From a phage: DNA of 64,000 bases. The position numbers and the translations under genes are program-made. Location: the NCBI GenBank assembly GCA_033759635.1, contig GCA_033759635.1_4528.1. One strand, 5' to 3'. Shown here one piece after another: positions 10,789 through 18,250 of the stretch. Position 1 is the first letter of the stretch. Each line of letters begins with the position of its first letter. Under the pieces are notes generated by a model. The model was not told the origin of the DNA. It worked only from the letters and a program-made list of their open reading frames with translations, and made no database searches.

Positions 10789-10862
10789 GGCCCTGTAGCT
10801 CAACGGTTAGCAGCAGTCCCCTCATAAGGGAAAGGTTACCAGTTCGAATCTGGTCTGGGTCA
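10789..10862 (+). tRNA. tRNA with CAU anticodon (Met, or Ile if lysidine-modified)
   Basis: Hand-folded cloverleaf: acceptor GGCCCUG/CUGGGUC (one U-U mismatch), anticodon stem UCCC/GGGA with loop CUCAUAA, T-arm ACCAG-UUCGAAU-CUGGU; CCA not encoded. Confidence 0.65.
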
Positions 10863-10868
10863 TATATT

Positions 10869-10945
<77 letters not shown>

Positions 10946-13765: not shown

Positions 13766-13788
13766 GGAGGACTCCGGTCCTCCTTTTG
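13766..13788 (+). terminator. rho-independent terminator
   Basis: GGAGGAC-tccg-GTCCTCC followed by TTTT. Confidence 0.6.
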
Positions 13789-13806
13789 GATAATAAAGGA
13801 GTTAAC

Positions 13807-14409
13807 ATGCGAAACCAAAATAATGATATTGACTCAATGTTCGAAGAGTTCCGAGATAAGGTAAATCCACCTACGTCTTTAGTTGATTCATTACGATATG
13901 TTTCAACCGGACGTAAATGGTACTGGTCGTCTTCTTATGAGACCACCGAGAAAACGGCTAGCCATAGCAGAAAATCTTTATTAGCCCCAGGTATTATGAT
14001 TCATGATATCGGAGCTATTGCTAAACTAGTTGCAGACCATGATATTAGATTCACTGATTTCGTTGCTCCTACGTGGTCTGTTTGTTGTTTAAACACTGAA
14101 TGGGAATATATCAGCGAACGCTCTGAAGATTATTATGGTTTTAGAGATAAGCTTCTGAGGTCTAATATGTTTTATATCGATACAGAAGTTCTAGTCGATA
14201 ATAAAAAATACTACTTTACGTTAATCGTCGATTCTGAAACTATGTATGAAGGCAAGCCTTTGCTTAAGAGAGTTGATGCTTTAAGTGCTATTGATGCGCT
14301 TTATGAAACTATGGTTGTTAGTCCTAATTTCACTAACAATTTAATCCTTGAGCAATTTATTATGGAATGTAGAGAATATGTCAAAGCCAACCCTATACAT
14401 GCCAAGTAA
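13807..14409 (+). CDS. hypothetical protein
   Basis: ORF 13786..14409 trimmed to the Met after AAGGAG (MRNQNNDIDSMF...). Confidence 0.5.
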   Translation: MRNQNNDIDSMFEEFRDKVNPPTSLVDSLRYVSTGRKWYWSSSYETTEKTASHSRKSLLAPGIMIHDIGAIAKLVADHDIRFTDFVAPTWSVCCLNTEWEYISERSEDYYGFRDKLLRSNMFYIDTEVLVDNKKYYFTLIVDSETMYEGKPLLKRVDALSAIDALYETMVVSPNFTNNLILEQFIMECREYVKANPIHAK

Positions 14410-14773
14410 GCCCTGGGCGTATGAATACAAGCGTAAATTAATCCCAAATGAAGTACTATTTGGCCCTATTTTAGCTTTAGCATTTTTAATCTTTATGATT
14501 ATAGGAGCCGTTTTAGATTTTAGTGAAGTTATATCGTCTGATGCAGCATTTTCATTAATGTTTGTCGCACCACTTATTGTACCGTTTTTATTAATGCCTA
14601 TTAACTGGATGGGATATTGGTACCAAGGACGTCATCACAGGGCCCGATTAAGAGAATGGAAAGTTCAGTGCGCAAAAGCCCAAGCTCAGTATGATGAAGC
14701 TGTTAAAAAGTATGAATATGAAGAAGCTATGGAATTCGTTAAGGAAATAAGATGCAAAAGCCTTAACTCTTAA
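14348..14773 (+). CDS. membrane protein (start uncertain)
   Basis: Two hydrophobic segments; true start probably at an internal Met (14378 or 14399) because the 5' end overlaps the previous gene. Confidence 0.45.
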   Translation: MSNLLWNVENMSKPTLYMPSKPWAYEYKRKLIPNEVLFGPILALAFLIFMIIGAVLDFSEVISSDAAFSLMFVAPLIVPFLLMPINWMGYWYQGRHHRARLREWKVQCAKAQAQYDEAVKKYEYEEAMEFVKEIRCKSLNS

Positions 14774-14814: not shown

Positions 14815-15111
14815 ATGAGTATTGGCATGGGATTTGCCTTTGGATTAGTTGGATTTATTATTGACGGCGTTGTGTTAGGATTTATAGGGAACACTGGTGG
14901 ATTCACAGATCAATGGCAGGACTTACGGTATACCCAAGCCTTTGCATCCATCGCATCATTTTGTACTGTAGTCTATTTTTACTACAATTTTATAAACCAT
15001 AACAAGAAAAATAAAAAAGTTTACGCTTCTCAAATGATTAGTTATAATGAACTCCTAGCTAGACGTGAAAATGAAACAATCGAAAACTTTATTAAGGAAT
15101 GTAGAAAATGA
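14815..15111 (+). CDS. small membrane protein, ENFIKECR-tail family (copy 1)
   Basis: N-terminal TM segments; C-terminus ...ENFIKECRK shared with the 17257 and 18250 products. Confidence 0.55.
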   Translation: MSIGMGFAFGLVGFIIDGVVLGFIGNTGGFTDQWQDLRYTQAFASIASFCTVVYFYYNFINHNKKNKKVYASQMISYNELLARRENETIENFIKECRK

Positions 15112-15413
15112 GTAAGATTATTGAAATTAAAGTACCAGAGTTTAATGATGCCAAATCCGCTTCAGATGCAATTTATAAACTTCTGAATCAAGCTGAACGT
15201 ATCGAAGAAGAAGCTACAAAGATTGCAGACCAATATGCAGTATCGTTTTCTGTAGGTGATTATGGTAGCGGTCGTACTTATTATCCTAAGGGTGAAATCG
15301 TATCCCAGTGGATGAAAGATGAAATTGAAAATAATGGCGGCGATGTTAAGCGTGAAGGTAATGGATACGTTATTACTGAAGGTGCTTGGGTTTCATCTTC
15401 TGCGTTGTGCTAA
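15108..15413 (+). CDS. hypothetical protein, WVSSSxxC-tail family (copy 1)
   Basis: 101 aa ending GAWVSSSALC; shares a YGxGxTYY motif with the next gene. Confidence 0.5.
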   Translation: MSKIIEIKVPEFNDAKSASDAIYKLLNQAERIEEEATKIADQYAVSFSVGDYGSGRTYYPKGEIVSQWMKDEIENNGGDVKREGNGYVITEGAWVSSSALC

Positions 15414-15422
15414 GGAATCATT

Positions 15423-15695
15423 ATGTCTAAAGAACAAACCGAACTGGCTGAAGCTGTAGCAAAAATCTATGCAGCTATTGAGGCTGCCAAAGAAATTGCT
15501 GATAAACAAAACACAACATTCGACTTGTATCCAGCTTATGGTATGGGTGGAACGTATTATTCTCCTGGATTCTTGAAAAAAGAACTTGAGCATTATACCG
15601 AACAAGGCAATCCGAATTGGGCCACTGTCAACCAACACTCATATTACACCAGCCTCGAATCAGGTGGTTGGGTTGCATCTTCTATGGAATGCTAA
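15423..15695 (+). CDS. hypothetical protein, WVSSSxxC-tail family (copy 2)
   Basis: 90 aa ending GGWVASSMEC. Confidence 0.5.
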   Translation: MSKEQTELAEAVAKIYAAIEAAKEIADKQNTTFDLYPAYGMGGTYYSPGFLKKELEHYTEQGNPNWATVNQHSYYTSLESGGWVASSMEC

Positions 15696-15704
15696 GGAAA
15701 TCAT

Positions 15705-15902
15705 ATGTCTCGTGAATTAGATTGTGCTGTACGTACGGCAGTAGCTGCTCTGGAAAACCTGTTCCAAATTGCAACAGAAGAACGCGAAGAAGTTACATTA
15801 TGGATTGAAGATAACGCAGGTCTGAATCTCCAGGACGCGATCTCATTATCCCACAATAGTATCACTGTTCAAGGCTGGGTATCATCTAGTTATTCTTGCT
15901 AA
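15705..15902 (+). CDS. hypothetical protein, WVSSSxxC-tail family (copy 3)
   Basis: 65 aa ending QGWVSSSYSC. Confidence 0.5.
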   Translation: MSRELDCAVRTAVAALENLFQIATEEREEVTLWIEDNAGLNLQDAISLSHNSITVQGWVSSSYSC

Positions 15903-15906
15903 AACA

Positions 15907-15944
15907 GTTTACAACAAGATAGGGCTATGTTATAGTAGTCCTAT
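15907..15944 (+). promoter_or_regulatory. early promoter cassette with stem-loop (PeSL-type)
   Basis: GTTTAC + ATAGGGCTA-tgTTATAGT-TAGTCCTAT. Confidence 0.55.
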
Positions 15945-15952
15945 CAAATTAA

Positions 15953-16204
15953 ATGGAGACAACAATGGTTTATTACGAAAGTATCGGAACCGAAGTAGTT
16001 GCTAAAACTATTACTCGTGAAAAGTTTGCAAAGATATTCGATATGCGTTATAAAAAATCTGAACACAAAGGCATCCGATTCGAAGATGCGCACTGTACAA
16101 TTTGCCCTTATAATGAAGACATAAACGGCACAATCGTTCCATTGGTAGAGGCTTCACATGACGACCTCTGGGATGAATATAATATCGCATGTCGCGAAAT
16201 TTAA
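15953..16204 (+). CDS. hypothetical protein
   Basis: 83-aa ORF following a promoter cassette. Confidence 0.5.
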   Translation: METTMVYYESIGTEVVAKTITREKFAKIFDMRYKKSEHKGIRFEDAHCTICPYNEDINGTIVPLVEASHDDLWDEYNIACREI

Positions 16205-16229: not shown

Positions 16230-17186
16230 ATGATGTTAGTTATTGGTTCTCGTGCACTTCACTATCACGGTCTTATTGATTCTAGCGCTATCAAAAATAG
16301 TGATTGGGACTTTATTGCGGACCAATGTTCTTGGAATGCATTCAAAAATCAAATGATGGGTGTATATGTTCACCAAGATAACCCTGGTGTCCAAGTTTTC
16401 AAATGTTTCCATAATGGACGCGAAACTCATTTTGAAGCATACATCGTTCCGGCTATCACTAACGTTCGCGAACTAGTCGGTGAACTCACTCCTGAAGATT
16501 TCACGTCTTCTTATGACCTTTTAAAATACGCCAAGAAAAATTTGACTAAAGACCGTTTGAACGGGTTTTACTGGGCAACTCCTGAGATATGTCTTGCAAT
16601 TAAGATGTCTCATCGTTTCAAGAAAAATAATCCATTCTTTTTAAAGACTATGAACCATATTCAGTATCTTCGTGGTAAAGGTGTTACACTGGACGATGAA
16701 CTTACTGAAATTATGCTGAAACGCCAGAAAGAAACCTTGAACTATGCTCACCCAGTTCTTGACACTTCTAAAAGCGCATTCTTTAAAGATGACATCTATA
16801 CGTATGACCATGATACTATTCACGAAGCCATTGCACTAACAGACCGTCCAGCGTATACATTTTATATGAAAGATGGTTCTGAAGTCATGACCTCACGCGA
16901 GAAGTTCGAATCATTACCAGAAATGGTCAAATTAGCCGGCGTATACGAAGAATCATGTGTACTAGCGTTAGAACGTTCTCAGATTCCTAATAACTTTGAA
17001 ATCCATCCACGTGATAGTTTTATGATGGCATTAGAAAAAGTCTGTACTTCAATCACGTCAGGCTGGTTCCGTGAATACGCTTGGGAAAACTACAGCAAAG
17101 TTGTAAGTATGTACCAAAGCTTAGGACATGACGATTATGTAAAACGTTTTAAACAAAATTTCCATATGGTAAAACCTTTCAAATAA
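16230..17186 (+). CDS. hypothetical protein, possible Pol-beta-type nucleotidyltransferase fold
   Basis: 318 aa; N-terminus IGSRALHYHGLIDSSAIKNSDWDF resembles the hG[GS]...DxD minimal nucleotidyltransferase motif, but spacing is longer than canonical. Confidence 0.4.
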   Translation: MMLVIGSRALHYHGLIDSSAIKNSDWDFIADQCSWNAFKNQMMGVYVHQDNPGVQVFKCFHNGRETHFEAYIVPAITNVRELVGELTPEDFTSSYDLLKYAKKNLTKDRLNGFYWATPEICLAIKMSHRFKKNNPFFLKTMNHIQYLRGKGVTLDDELTEIMLKRQKETLNYAHPVLDTSKSAFFKDDIYTYDHDTIHEAIALTDRPAYTFYMKDGSEVMTSREKFESLPEMVKLAGVYEESCVLALERSQIPNNFEIHPRDSFMMALEKVCTSITSGWFREYAWENYSKVVSMYQSLGHDDYVKRFKQNFHMVKPFK

Positions 17187-17198
17187 TTTCGCAAAACT

Positions 17199-17236
17199 GT
17201 TTACACAATTATAGGACTATGTTATAGTAGTCCTAT
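17199..17236 (+). promoter_or_regulatory. early promoter cassette with stem-loop (PeSL-type)
   Basis: GTTTAC + ATAGGACTA-tgTTATAGT-TAGTCCTAT (same cassette as at 9286). Confidence 0.55.
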
Positions 17237-17256: not shown

Positions 17257-17562
17257 ATGAAATTAGGCGAAACCAACCGAATTGGTCTTTTAACTATATT
17301 TGTATCACTTTTTTACGTAGCTCTTTCTGTTGCAGTATTACAAAAGGCTTACGATATGGATGGTGTTCCTGGTTTTGTATTCTTATCACCATTTTTATTA
17401 TTCGTCGGGGCTTTGTTATTATATGCCACGACTAGTTTTGACCATAACGTCTGGGTTAATTATAAATGTAAATTGTCTGAAGAAGAACACGCAGAAGCTC
17501 GTAAAAAAACTATTGAATCTACCAATCTAGAAAATTTCATTAAAGAATGTCGAGGAAAATAA
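17257..17562 (+). CDS. small membrane protein, ENFIKECR-tail family (copy 2)
   Basis: Two TM segments; C-terminus ...LENFIKECRGK. Confidence 0.55.
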   Translation: MKLGETNRIGLLTIFVSLFYVALSVAVLQKAYDMDGVPGFVFLSPFLLFVGALLLYATTSFDHNVWVNYKCKLSEEEHAEARKKTIESTNLENFIKECRGK

Positions 17563-17563
17563 T

Positions 17564-18250
17564 ATGAATAGTTCTAAAGTGTTTAATAGTCAAGCTCGTG
17601 CAGTAGGTGGTTTTGCTCATAACGTACAAAATGACCAAATCAAAAATGAACCAATGTTCTTTAACTGTGATTTGAGTTTTGCTTGGGATAACGGCGGTCC
17701 TATTACTCGTAGCTTTATTGCCAATCTCCCAATTGATTGGACTAATCAACATGTTGTATTTGATTCTCGGGTTCATATGCTGATGCCTGGTTGGTATCCT
17801 GCTATTCCTGGATATCACCATGACGATGTTCCTCGCCCTGATATTCCAGTCTGCCAACACTTTATTACTGCAGGACAACCTGACTATGATAACCCTCGTT
17901 ACCATTCTGAACATATTCTTGGTCTTGTTAACGCTGACGTGTGTCCTACTCATTTTGCAACAGGAACTGCAGAGTTCAGTCAGATTCCTGATGGCGAACT
18001 TATCTATCGCCAATGGCACAAAGAAGTCCTCGAAAAAATTGAAAAAGGTGAACTAGAGAAATGGGAAGCTCCAGACCGTACTCTTCTTCAGTTTGATTGG
18101 CAAACATGGCACACTGGTTCTCGTGCAATTAGTAATGGATGGCGTTGGTTCGGACGTGTATCTCGTAATACAGACCGAGTTAAAAAGATTACCAATGAAA
18201 TTCGTGTCAATGCCCAAGTTTATCTGGAATTCCCTATGGAAGGCTGGTAA
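17564..18250 (+). CDS. hypothetical protein (His/Cys-rich)
   Basis: 228-aa ORF; several HxD/HH/Cys clusters suggest metal binding, but no family recognised. Confidence 0.5.
   Translation: MNSSKVFNSQARAVGGFAHNVQNDQIKNEPMFFNCDLSFAWDNGGPITRSFIANLPIDWTNQHVVFDSRVHMLMPGWYPAIPGYHHDDVPRPDIPVCQHFITAGQPDYDNPRYHSEHILGLVNADVCPTHFATGTAEFSQIPDGELIYRQWHKEVLEKIEKGELEKWEAPDRTLLQFDWQTWHTGSRAISNGWRWFGRVSRNTDRVKKITNEIRVNAQVYLEFPMEGW

What the first reader, a model, noticed from the sequence alone, without database searches (positions are those of the whole stretch)
15108..15902. Tandem triplet of small paralogous proteins ending in G-x-W-V-x-S-S-x-x-C
Three consecutive genes (101, 90, 65 aa) end in GAWVSSSALC, GGWVASSMEC and QGWVSSSYSC; the first two also share YG(S/M)G(R/G)TYY. 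A conserved C-terminal Cys as the last residue is unusual and could mark a modification or recognition site. The array directly follows an ENFIKECR-tail membrane protein.
Basis: seen in the sequence. Interest (0 to 1): 0.55.

Follow-up and report, generated by a model that had tools for sequence, protein, structure and literature searches.

The report
Cys-ended small proteins with partner enzyme
Three adjacent small acidic phage genes end in the same W-x-x-S-S-x-x-Cys tail, and this tail family sits almost always just upstream of one uncharacterised nucleotidyltransferase-like gene in hundreds of large phages, which points to an undescribed two-part system that can now be tested.

Summary
The window is an RB69-like (Mosigvirus) T4-type phage. 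ORFs 15108-15413, 15423-15695 and 15705-15902 encode 101, 90 and 65 aa proteins ending GAWVSSSALC, GGWVASSMEC and QGWVSSSYSC. These are the only such tails in 64 kb (about 0.003-0.007 expected by chance).

The first two are clear paralogues (phrog_899). The third (phrog_4882) shares the tail and, more weakly, the N-terminal helix.

The family is large: 736 clusters at 50% identity. Of 203 representatives, 194 end exactly in Cys, and W(-8), S(-5) and S(-4) are almost invariant. Mean net charge is about -8. It has no Pfam family, no solved-structure relative and no literature.

The key new result is synteny. A 300-340 aa DUF7277+DUF7275 protein (window 16230-17186), with an N-terminal GS...DxD motif, lies downstream of every Cys-tail array that has enough flank (38/38). 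Conversely, 78 of 80 such enzyme loci carry 1-6 Cys-tail ORFs upstream. This holds in T4-like, phAPEC8-like, Otagovirus and about 370-kb jumbo phages.

My best reading is that the tail is the recognition or modification element for this enzyme. The chemistry is not established. No function has been described for it, and I rate it moderately to highly interesting.

The parts
15020..15048 (+). Promoter-like site (TTTACG-17-TATAAT) inside the 3' end of e.3, upstream of the array
   Evidence: Consensus scan, 10/12 match. A middle promoter is annotated at the equivalent place in OL960577. This is a consensus match only.
15108..15413 (+). p1, a 101-aa acidic Cys-tail protein (homologue of RB69ORF139c); start overlaps the e.3 stop (ATGA)
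   Evidence: ORF list. phrog_899, E 1e-22. AF2 model pLDDT 92. pI 4.6, one Cys.
15387..15410 (+). Tail of p1: W-V-S-S-S-A-L-C
15423..15695 (+). p2, a 90-aa acidic Cys-tail protein (homologue of RB69ORF137c)
   Evidence: phrog_899, E 7e-19. BLASTP against p1, E 3e-5.
15669..15692 (+). Tail of p2: W-V-A-S-S-M-E-C
15705..15902 (+). p3, a 65-aa acidic Cys-tail protein (homologue of RB69ORF136c); a different body that lacks the YG.G.TYY segment
   Evidence: phrog_4882, E 8e-37. Family alignment A4 with invariant C7 and C65. Only the tail aligns to A3.
15876..15899 (+). Tail of p3: W-V-S-S-S-Y-S-C
15908..15936 (+). Promoter-like site (TTTACA-17-TATAGT, TG extended) just after the p3 stop, ahead of orf83 and the enzyme gene
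15918..15945 (+). 11-bp stem-loop closing the array, overlapping the promoter-like site
   Evidence: RNA fold -16 kcal/mol, z -3.95. A terminator is annotated at the equivalent place in OL960577.
15953..16204 (+). 83-aa ORF (homologue of RB69ORF135c) between the array and the enzyme; whether it belongs to the module is unknown and it is not conserved outside close relatives
   Evidence: phrog_3723. It is not among the widely co-occurring families.
16230..17186 (+). 318-aa DUF7277+DUF7275 protein (homologue of RB69ORF134c), the conserved partner; N-terminal GS-x17-DxD motif, invariant K125, H128, K139, H194-D195, H198, E240-E241, E248-R249, and KVCTSITSGWFR
   Evidence: Pfam E 4e-79 and 1e-26. 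Alignments. Synteny.

Best explanation
The three genes are early-expressed members of a large phage-specific family of small, very acidic proteins. Their defining feature is a C-terminal W-x2-S-S-x2-Cys-COOH tail. They work together with the DUF7277+DUF7275 protein encoded just downstream (window 16230-17186).

I propose that the tail is the element this enzyme recognises and that the variable bodies are the cargo. This would be a one-enzyme, many-clients arrangement.

The most likely chemistry is covalent modification of the tail by a nucleotidyltransferase-type reaction. One option is NMP transfer to one of the two invariant Ser hydroxyls. Another is chemistry involving the terminal Cys thiol or carboxylate together with the enzyme's conserved Cys272. 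The modification would switch on, or mark, small effectors used in host takeover or counter-defence.

Shown: the family, the invariance and terminal position of the tail, the fold confidence, restriction to phages, and the two-way gene linkage.

Inferred: that the tail contacts the enzyme, that the enzyme is a nucleotidyltransferase, that a covalent modification occurs, and the biological role.
For: (1) Tail invariance and terminal position. Of 203 representatives, 194 end in Cys. W(-8) occurs in 193/194, S(-5) in 193/194 and S(-4) in 190/194. In 107 of the 194 the terminal Cys is the only Cys.

(2) The tail is portable. It sits on the p1/p2 body, on the p3 body, and on at least three further body types of 52-154 aa with no BLAST similarity to the main family.

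(3) Linkage from the small-protein side. All 38 loci with enough downstream DNA carry the enzyme gene on the same strand, 13-1600 bp away.

(4) Linkage from the enzyme side. 76 of 80 enzyme loci have 1-6 Cys-tail ORFs within 3 kb upstream by regex or HMM, and 2 more by eye. Among 48 non-redundant loci (enzyme at or below 75% identity) the Cys-tail family is the only widely shared neighbour: 40 loci, against 12 or fewer for any other family, and the 12-locus family is itself a tail variant.

(5) The linkage spans unrelated phage groups: Tevenvirinae, Aeromonas and Acinetobacter T4-likes, phAPEC8 (Stephanstirmvirinae), Pseudomonas Otagovirus, about 370-kb jumbo phages and metagenomic contigs. 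Enzyme identity falls to about 38%.

(6) Covariation. Enzymes with C272 (KVCTSITSGWFR) have tails in 41 of 42 loci. The three without C272 (two actinophages and Vibrio VH7D) have none.

(7) Enzyme-like character. G6, S7, D25 and D27 are invariant in 45/45 sequences, together with an invariant set of K/H/D/E residues. Two GenBank records name homologues 'nucleotidyltransferase'.

(8) The array and the enzyme gene each have an early-type promoter-like site.
Against: No modification or physical interaction has been shown.

The nucleotidyltransferase assignment rests only on a short motif and on two depositor annotations. Pfam, NCBIfam, PADLOC and PDB profile searches gave nothing. The single-sequence AF2 model of the enzyme was unusable (pLDDT 41).

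In the AF2 model of p1 the tail is a strand plus a short helix packed in the fold (E93-96, H97-100). It is not a free flexible tag.

Internal copies of the unit (DW.SSSCYGE) exist in some members, so a free carboxylate is not always part of the motif.

The array and the enzyme are separate transcription units here. The loci are not phylogenetically independent, and the locus searches were seeded on conserved motifs. DSS3_VP1 has C272 but no tail ORF.
Confidence: 0.5

Rival explanations
1. The pair is toxin-antitoxin-like or a regulator pair. The 318-aa protein would be an AbiEii/MenT-like nucleotidyltransferase acting on RNA, for example tRNA 3' ends. The small acidic proteins would bind it non-covalently through the tail. 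They would act as inhibitors, as nucleic-acid mimics, or as interchangeable specificity subunits.
For: The gene order is small gene(s) upstream, then the NTase-like gene, as in AbiE/MenAT. MenA1 is a 68-aa antitoxin (PMC10435456).

The small proteins are strongly acidic, with mean net charge -7.9.

The enzyme has [S]..DxD, an invariant K125 and a D/H about 18 residues later. This loosely resembles the MenT catalytic [S/T]xD, K, D set.

RNA-repair or tRNA genes lie near the enzyme gene in several unrelated phages: Rnl1+PNKP in L007, RNA ligase 2 in L126, a polynucleotide kinase in L122, and tRNA arrays in L121 and in the window.
Against: None of 19 diverse members matched DUF1814/AbiEii in Pfam, even at E up to 5.

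One to six diverse small paralogues per enzyme is unusual for an antitoxin.

The array has its own promoter-like site and stem-loop and is not translationally coupled to the enzyme gene.

A non-covalent binder does not obviously explain why the Cys is the very last residue.
Confidence: 0.27
2. The tail is an intrinsic functional or structural element of the small proteins. It could be a metal or redox site, an oligomerisation element, or a strand that closes the fold. The proteins would then act on host targets independently of the neighbouring gene, and the linkage would reflect only co-regulation or shared ancestry of a gene cassette.
For: In the AF2 model the tail is part of the sheet, with good confidence. 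p3-type proteins have a second invariant Cys (C7). Small acidic early proteins of T4-like phages often act alone as mimics or inhibitors (general knowledge).
Against: The linkage persists across phage groups that share little other synteny and at about 25-40% identity. The tail occurs on unrelated bodies. Presence of the tail tracks the enzyme's C272 motif. More than half of members have a single Cys, so a metal site within one chain is unlikely.
Confidence: 0.15
3. The proteins are RiPP-like precursors. An N-terminal helix would serve as leader and the C-terminal W..SS..C as a core. The core would be cyclised (Ser to dehydroalanine plus Cys, or an aminovinyl-cysteine ring on an S-x-x-C end) or otherwise cross-linked, then released.
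For: The proteins are short and occur as multiple paralogues with a shared Ser/Cys-rich C-terminal segment. The S-x-x-Cys-COOH spacing equals that of AviCys-forming ends in epidermin and cypemycin (from memory, not tested).
Against: No dehydratase, cyclase, radical-SAM or flavoprotein decarboxylase family was detected among the neighbours. p1 is predicted as a compact folded domain that includes the tail. The hosts are lytic phages with no export or protease genes in the module.
Confidence: 0.05
4. The shared ends are a nucleotide-level feature (a duplication remnant, a ribosome-binding or coupling signal) or a chance resemblance.
For: The p1 and p2 ends are followed by nearly the same TGC TAA GGA A..ATG junction. 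TAAGGA there serves as the Shine-Dalgarno sequence of the next gene.
Against: Chance expectation is 0.003-0.007 against 3 observed. The tails differ by synonymous codons. p3 lacks the junction. Hundreds of distant homologues keep the peptide motif.
Confidence: 0.01

Closest known systems
PHROG families phrog_899 and phrog_4882 (small proteins); Pfam DUF7277 (PF23942) + DUF7275 (PF23940) and phrog_2141 (partner)
   Same: Direct members: E 1e-22, 7e-19 and 8e-37 for the small proteins, and 1e-26 and 4e-79 for the partner.
   Different: These are bookkeeping families with no assigned function. Neither the tail nor the linkage between the two is recorded in the annotations I could see. A full-text search for the accessions found no paper.
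AbiE / MenAT nucleotidyltransferase toxin-antitoxin systems (DUF1814 toxins with small upstream partners; type VII logic in MenAT3)
   Same: A small upstream gene followed by a roughly 300-aa bi-lobed NTase-like protein. The [S]xD, K and D/H pattern is loosely similar. In MenAT3 the partner is controlled through a Ser (PMC10435456).
   Different: No DUF1814 match. The system is phage-borne rather than cellular. There are several partners per enzyme. The partners share an invariant C-terminal Cys tail that MenA proteins do not have.
MntA-HepT (type VII TA): a minimal nucleotidyltransferase that poly-AMPylates its small partner protein
   Same: Conceptually the closest match to the proposed mechanism: an NTase that covalently nucleotidylylates a small partner encoded next to it.
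   Different: The partner there is a HEPN RNase modified on Tyr. Here the small proteins show no HEPN match, and the candidate acceptor is Ser or Cys in a C-terminal tail. The comparison rests on my own knowledge and was not tested.
C-terminal tag plus dedicated enzyme systems (LPXTG/sortase, PEP-CTERM/exosortase, GlyGly-CTERM/rhombosortase) and multi-precursor RiPP systems (prochlorosins/ProcM)
   Same: The genomic logic is the same: many different proteins share one short conserved terminal motif and co-occur with one dedicated enzyme.
   Different: Sorting tags are followed by a transmembrane helix and act on secreted proteins. Here there is no signal peptide or TM segment, and the motif is the extreme C-terminus of cytoplasmic, acidic, folded proteins. 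The enzyme is unrelated.
Proteins that use a terminal Cys as a carrier arm (HypE C-terminal Cys in [NiFe]-hydrogenase cyanide synthesis) or an activated C-terminus (ThiS/MoaD/ubiquitin-like Gly-Gly)
   Same: The very last residue is the chemically active one and is handled by a nucleotide-using partner enzyme.
   Different: The folds and motifs differ (PR[IV]C on a 330-aa PurM-like protein; beta-grasp with GG). Fold searches found no such similarity. This is recalled from memory as an analogy only.

Membership tests
phrog_899 / phrog_4882 (phage small proteins of unknown function) | Significant match to the family HMM | tested here: met
   p1 E 1.3e-22 and p2 E 7.3e-19 to phrog_899; p3 E 7.7e-37 to phrog_4882.
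Cys-tail family as defined here | C-terminal W-x2-S-S-x2-C with Cys as the last residue | tested here: met
   All three window proteins. 194/203 representatives end in Cys; W(-8) 193/194, S(-5) 193/194, S(-4) 190/194.
Cys-tail family as defined here | DUF7277+DUF7275 gene downstream on the same strand | tested here: met
   Window gene 16230-17186. 38/38 loci from the small-protein side and 78/80 from the enzyme side.
Pol-beta-type nucleotidyltransferases (for the 318-aa partner) | hG[GS]-x(9-20)-DxD plus a third acidic residue, on an alpha/beta NTase fold | tested here: inconclusive
   G6, S7, D25 and D27 are invariant in 45/45 sequences, and E69 is invariant in the 19-sequence alignment A5. 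There is no Pfam or PDB profile hit. hhalign aligned only the DxD stretch, at about 1% probability. The fold was not obtained.
AbiEii/MenT (DUF1814) toxins | Match to PF08843/DUF1814 | tested here: not met
   None of 19 diverse members matched at E up to 5.
AbiEii/MenT (DUF1814) toxins | Growth inhibition relieved by the upstream partner; NTP addition to tRNA 3' ends | not testable with these tools
   Needs expression and biochemical assays.
MntA-HepT type VII TA | HEPN partner and a minimal NTase (NTP_transf_2) domain | tested here: not met
   No HEPN or NTP_transf_2 Pfam hit for any of the proteins.
Lanthipeptide / AviCys-type RiPP precursors | Neighbouring dehydratase/cyclase (LanB/C/M) or LanD-type flavoprotein decarboxylase; unstructured leader-core peptide | tested here: not met
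   No such family among the window neighbours or among the conserved neighbours of 48 loci. p1 is predicted as a folded domain, pLDDT 92.
Ubiquitin-like / ThiS-MoaD carriers | Beta-grasp fold and C-terminal Gly-Gly | tested here: not met
C-terminal sorting signals (sortase, exosortase, rhombosortase substrates) | Signal peptide; motif followed by a TM helix and basic residues | tested here: not met
   The sequences show no N-terminal signal or TM segment, and the motif is the extreme C-terminus.

The most novel reading that the evidence does not exclude
This is a previously undescribed, phage-specific protein-modification system. A nucleotidyltransferase-like enzyme with a conserved Cys (KVCTSITSGWFR) would act on the free C-terminal W..SS..Cys end of up to six different small acidic effector proteins per genome. 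The result would be a new post-translational mark, such as Ser-O- or Cys-S-nucleotidylylation, or an activated C-terminal Cys used for transfer or conjugation. The mark would control host takeover or counter-defence in hundreds of large lytic phages.
Probability: 0.25. Interest if true: 0.9.

Novelty: categorically new. Interest (0 to 1): 0.7.

Why it matters
If the tail is an enzyme-addressed tag, this would be a new kind of protein chemistry in viruses. It would also assign a role to two large sets of 'hypothetical' genes: 736 clusters at 50% identity for the small proteins, and 734 phage records for the enzyme. These genes lie in the variable early regions of T4-like, phAPEC8-like, Otagovirus and jumbo phages, many of which are used or proposed for therapy.

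The variable bodies on a constant tail suggest a toolkit of effectors against different host targets, so the module may bear on host range and counter-defence.

It is directly testable. The genes are present in RB69 relatives and in the BASEL phage Bas47. The RB69 reference record carries a frameshifted p1, which hints that the gene is dispensable in the laboratory.

Tried and rejected
- **Family libraries.** Pfam, NCBIfam and PADLOC scans of p1-p3 and their neighbours gave only DUF7275/DUF7277 and functionless PHROGs.
- **Solved structures by sequence.** PDB searches with the small-protein profile, the enzyme profile, the enzyme N-terminal-domain profile and p228 found nothing significant.
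- **Libraries and jobs I could not use.** afdb50 was not available. The single-sequence model was unusable, pLDDT 41.
I do not count this as evidence.
- **Literature.** Searches for ORF names, PHROG/Pfam accessions, motif strings and descriptive terms found nothing relevant. One hit on RB69 nucleotidyltransferase concerns a different gene.
- **p228 (17564-18250) as a module member.** Rejected, because it is present in only 6 of 48 non-redundant loci.
- **DNA-level repeat or ribosome-binding-site explanation.** Rejected.
- **Direct DNA repeat flanking the cassette** (the ends of e.3 and of orf101). Only 20/24 identical with synonymous changes, so this is protein-level similarity.
- **Cellular homologues.** Only 6 MAG contigs among 185,579 species genomes, five of them again with tail ORFs, and 3 partial plasmid hits.
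Full report
**Where this is.** The window matches Mosigvirus (RB69-like, Straboviridae) genomes at 94-98% identity. Annotated relatives place the finding between the tRNA cluster and the lysozyme gene e, in the run of 'e.x' genes. Window tRNA-Met and tRNA-Arg lie at 10789-10945. In T4 itself e.3 and e.2 abut. In the window, the genes between the e.3 homologue (ends 15111) and the next gene similar to e.2 include the three small genes and their partner. The block is therefore an insertion in a variable early region.

**The observation.** The ORF list and the sequence confirm three consecutive + strand genes:
- 15108-15413: 101 aa, ending GAWVSSSALC.
- 15423-15695: 90 aa, ending GGWVASSMEC.
- 15705-15902: 65 aa, ending QGWVSSSYSC.

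The first gene starts within the stop of the e.3 homologue (ATGA). That upstream protein ends ENFIKECRK. The next two genes each start 9 nt after the previous stop.

A six-frame scan for W.[SA]SS..C-stop finds only these three sites in 64 kb. About 0.003-0.007 are expected by chance. Codon usage in the tails differs synonymously.

All three proteins are acidic (pI 4.2-4.7, net charge -6 to -7). p1 and p2 each have a single Cys, the terminal one.

**Are they paralogues?** p1 and p2 are. BLASTP gives E=3e-5 from YG.G.TYY to the end, and both match phrog_899.

p3 belongs to phrog_4882. Its family is well conserved, with invariant C7 and C65. Against the p1/p2 profile only the last 14 columns align, and pairwise BLASTP finds nothing. 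With the last 12 residues removed, one p2-type protein links to p3-type N-terminal helices at 38-43% identity (E 4e-5 to 5e-4). p3 is therefore probably a shortened relative that lost the YG.G.TYY segment.

**The family.** Word-seeded searches found 68 relatives. An exhaustive profile search of 1.84 billion cluster representatives found 736 at E<=1e-3 and 136 at E<=1e-10.

The members are 70-140 aa. They share an N-terminal amphipathic helix ending ..AE.IADE.., then ..F.F...YGMGGTYYP, then an acidic, Trp- and Ser-rich linker, then (E)GW.SSS..C.

Of 203 representatives, 194 end exactly in Cys and 7 more have one residue after it. W at -8, S at -5 and S at -4 are present in 190-193 of the 194. 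In 107 of the 194 the only Cys is the terminal one. Mean net charge is -7.9.

Some members carry internal copies of the unit (DW.SSSCYGE.).

**The partner.** Two distant members led to the main result. In a 371-kb phage contig, and in a 3.3-kb metagenomic contig, the small gene is followed by a DUF7275 or DUF7277+DUF7275 gene. The window has the same gene at 16230-17186 (Pfam E 4e-79 and 1e-26).

I tested the linkage in both directions.
- **From the small-protein side.** Every one of the 38 loci with enough downstream DNA has the enzyme gene on the same strand. The two without it are contigs that end too early.
- **From the enzyme side.** Of 80 loci fetched with the enzyme profile, 76 have 1-6 Cys-tail ORFs within 3 kb upstream. 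Two of the four exceptions have variant tails (..WVQSSC..NWDSSTC).
- **Non-redundant loci.** In 48 loci (enzyme at or below 75% identity) the Cys-tail family is the only neighbour shared widely: 40 loci. The next family (12 loci) is itself a tail variant, and all others occur in 9 loci or fewer.

The number of tail genes per locus ranges from 1 to 6. JS98 has four matching the tail pattern, one of them unannotated, plus a fifth ending ..WYPSSC.

The tail also sits on bodies with no detectable similarity to the main family (52-154 aa).

The linkage holds in the following groups:
- T4-like phages of enterobacteria and Aeromonas, and the Acinetobacter T4-like phage Acj9 (locus L119)
- phAPEC8
- Pseudomonas Otagovirus
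- jumbo phages

The module is essentially phage-only. I found 6 MAG contigs in 185,579 species genomes, five of them again with tail ORFs, and 3 partial plasmid hits.

**What the partner looks like.** Across 45 diverse sequences the following are invariant or nearly so:
- G6-S7 and D25-x-D27
- K125, H128 and K139
- H194-D195 and H198
- E240-E241 and E248-R249
- the stretch KVCTSITSGWFR

The N-terminal hhhhGS-x(15-20)-DxD pattern is that of pol-beta-type nucleotidyltransferases. Two GenBank depositors call homologues 'nucleotidyltransferase'.

I could not confirm the fold. No Pfam, NCBIfam, PADLOC or PDB match was found. The single-sequence model failed, and hhalign to recalled NTase sequences was not significant.

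Shorter homologues, matched over the DUF7275 region but keeping the GS...DxD start, occur in two actinophages and in Vibrio VH7D. They lack C272 and have no tail genes. DSS3_VP1 keeps C272 but has no tail gene. Overall the count is 41 loci with C272 and a tail, 1 with C272 and no tail, 0 without C272 with a tail, and 3 without either. This is suggestive, but only a few lineages are involved.

**Expression.** Promoter-like sites of the T4 early/middle kind lie at 15020-15048, before p1, and at 15908-15936, just after p3. An 11-bp stem-loop at 15918-15945 closes the array. A relative's record annotates a promoter and a terminator at the same places. These are consensus matches, not proof of expression.

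**Interpretation.** Three observations are best explained if the tail is what the enzyme recognises:
- an invariant motif fixed at the extreme C-terminus
- the same motif carried by several different bodies
- one to six such genes kept next to a single enzyme-like gene across distant phages

Given the nucleotidyltransferase-like motif, the enzyme probably modifies the tail (confidence about 0.5 for the module-and-recognition claim, and lower for covalent chemistry).

The main rival (0.27) is a toxin-antitoxin-like or regulatory pair resembling AbiE/MenAT, in which the acidic proteins bind the enzyme non-covalently. The gene order, the acidity and the nearby RNA-repair genes fit this rival. The lack of a DUF1814 match and the multiplicity of partners do not.

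An independent structural or metal role for the tail (0.15), a RiPP-like reading (0.05) and a nucleotide-level artefact (0.01) are less likely, for the reasons given under each rival.

**Novelty.** The families exist only as functionless PHROG and DUF entries. I found no paper mentioning them, the motif or the linkage. All source names are 'hypothetical protein' apart from stray mislabels. I therefore rate the module as not belonging to any described kind of system. The caveat is that this rests on negative searches and that the function is inferred.

**Limits.**
- ORFs in fetched loci were called from the first ATG, so some are over-extended.
- Tails were recognised by regular expressions plus HMMs.
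- Locus retrieval was seeded on conserved peptides, which biases it toward canonical members.
- Many loci are close relatives, which is why I also give counts for non-redundant loci.

Noticed in passing
window 14815-15111 and 17257-17562; also 13786-14409 and 14348-14773: Two small membrane ORFs end in nearly the same ...ENFIKECR(K/GK). Weaker versions occur in the e.5 homologue (..EQFIMECREY..) and at the end of the e.4 homologue (..MEFVKEIRCKS). L061 has ..IENFIRMCRKN and ..FECFINDCRKARK. At the DNA level the two window copies are 20/24 identical with synonymous changes, so this is protein-level conservation. In e.3 the K-E codons (AAG GAA) also form the Shine-Dalgarno sequence for p1.
   Followed up: partly
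RB69 reference record (P0002, 71 aa): In RB69 itself the p1 gene is split into ORF139c (71 aa) and ORF138c. This is a frameshift or a sequencing error. It hints that the gene is dispensable in the laboratory strain.
   Followed up: no
window 17564-18250: A 228-aa protein (homologue of RB69ORF132c). By eye it has an H-x-D ... H pattern (GYHHDD ... WHTG) like 2OG/Fe(II) oxygenases. It has no Pfam or PDB match. It accompanies the module in only 6 of 48 non-redundant loci.
   Followed up: partly
window 15908-15945 and 17200-17228: Near-identical promoter-like sites (TTTACA-17-TATAGT). The first overlaps a strong stem-loop. This resembles the promoter-plus-stem-loop cassettes described in variable regions of T4-type genomes (from memory) and fits the module being a shuffled cassette absent from T4.
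   Followed up: partly
L003 (phage JS98) 4208-4417: An unannotated 69-aa ORF ending ..GFWFSSSMSC lies between annotated orf127 and orf126. It is a fourth tail-pattern gene in that phage's array, which also has a 74-aa ORF ending ..WYPSSC. Tail-family genes are sometimes missed by annotators; ATK48 likewise omits p1.
   Followed up: partly
L121 4387-5297, L122 4094-4393, L123 2860-3156: The shorter homologues of actinophages and Vibrio VH7D (matched over the DUF7275 region, without the C272 motif) lack Cys-tail neighbours. Instead they sit next to another small conserved ORF type: ..G(W/Y)Y.S..GG.(Y/W)DG...EV.P..K.ITV... This may be an analogous partner family.
   Followed up: no
L007 1-6000, L126 765-2310, L122 1-417, L121 5456-7341: DUF7275 genes in unrelated phages lie within a few kb of RNA-repair or tRNA genes: Rnl1 and PNKP, RNA ligase 2 and a phosphoesterase, a polynucleotide kinase, and tRNA arrays. 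In the window the tRNAs are about 4 kb upstream. This may be coincidence or a hint of an RNA substrate.
   Followed up: no
L007 105-1220: The 371-kb phage contig that carries the module also encodes a Gad2-family (anti-Gabija) protein a few kb away. This is consistent with an accessory or counter-defence neighbourhood.
   Followed up: no
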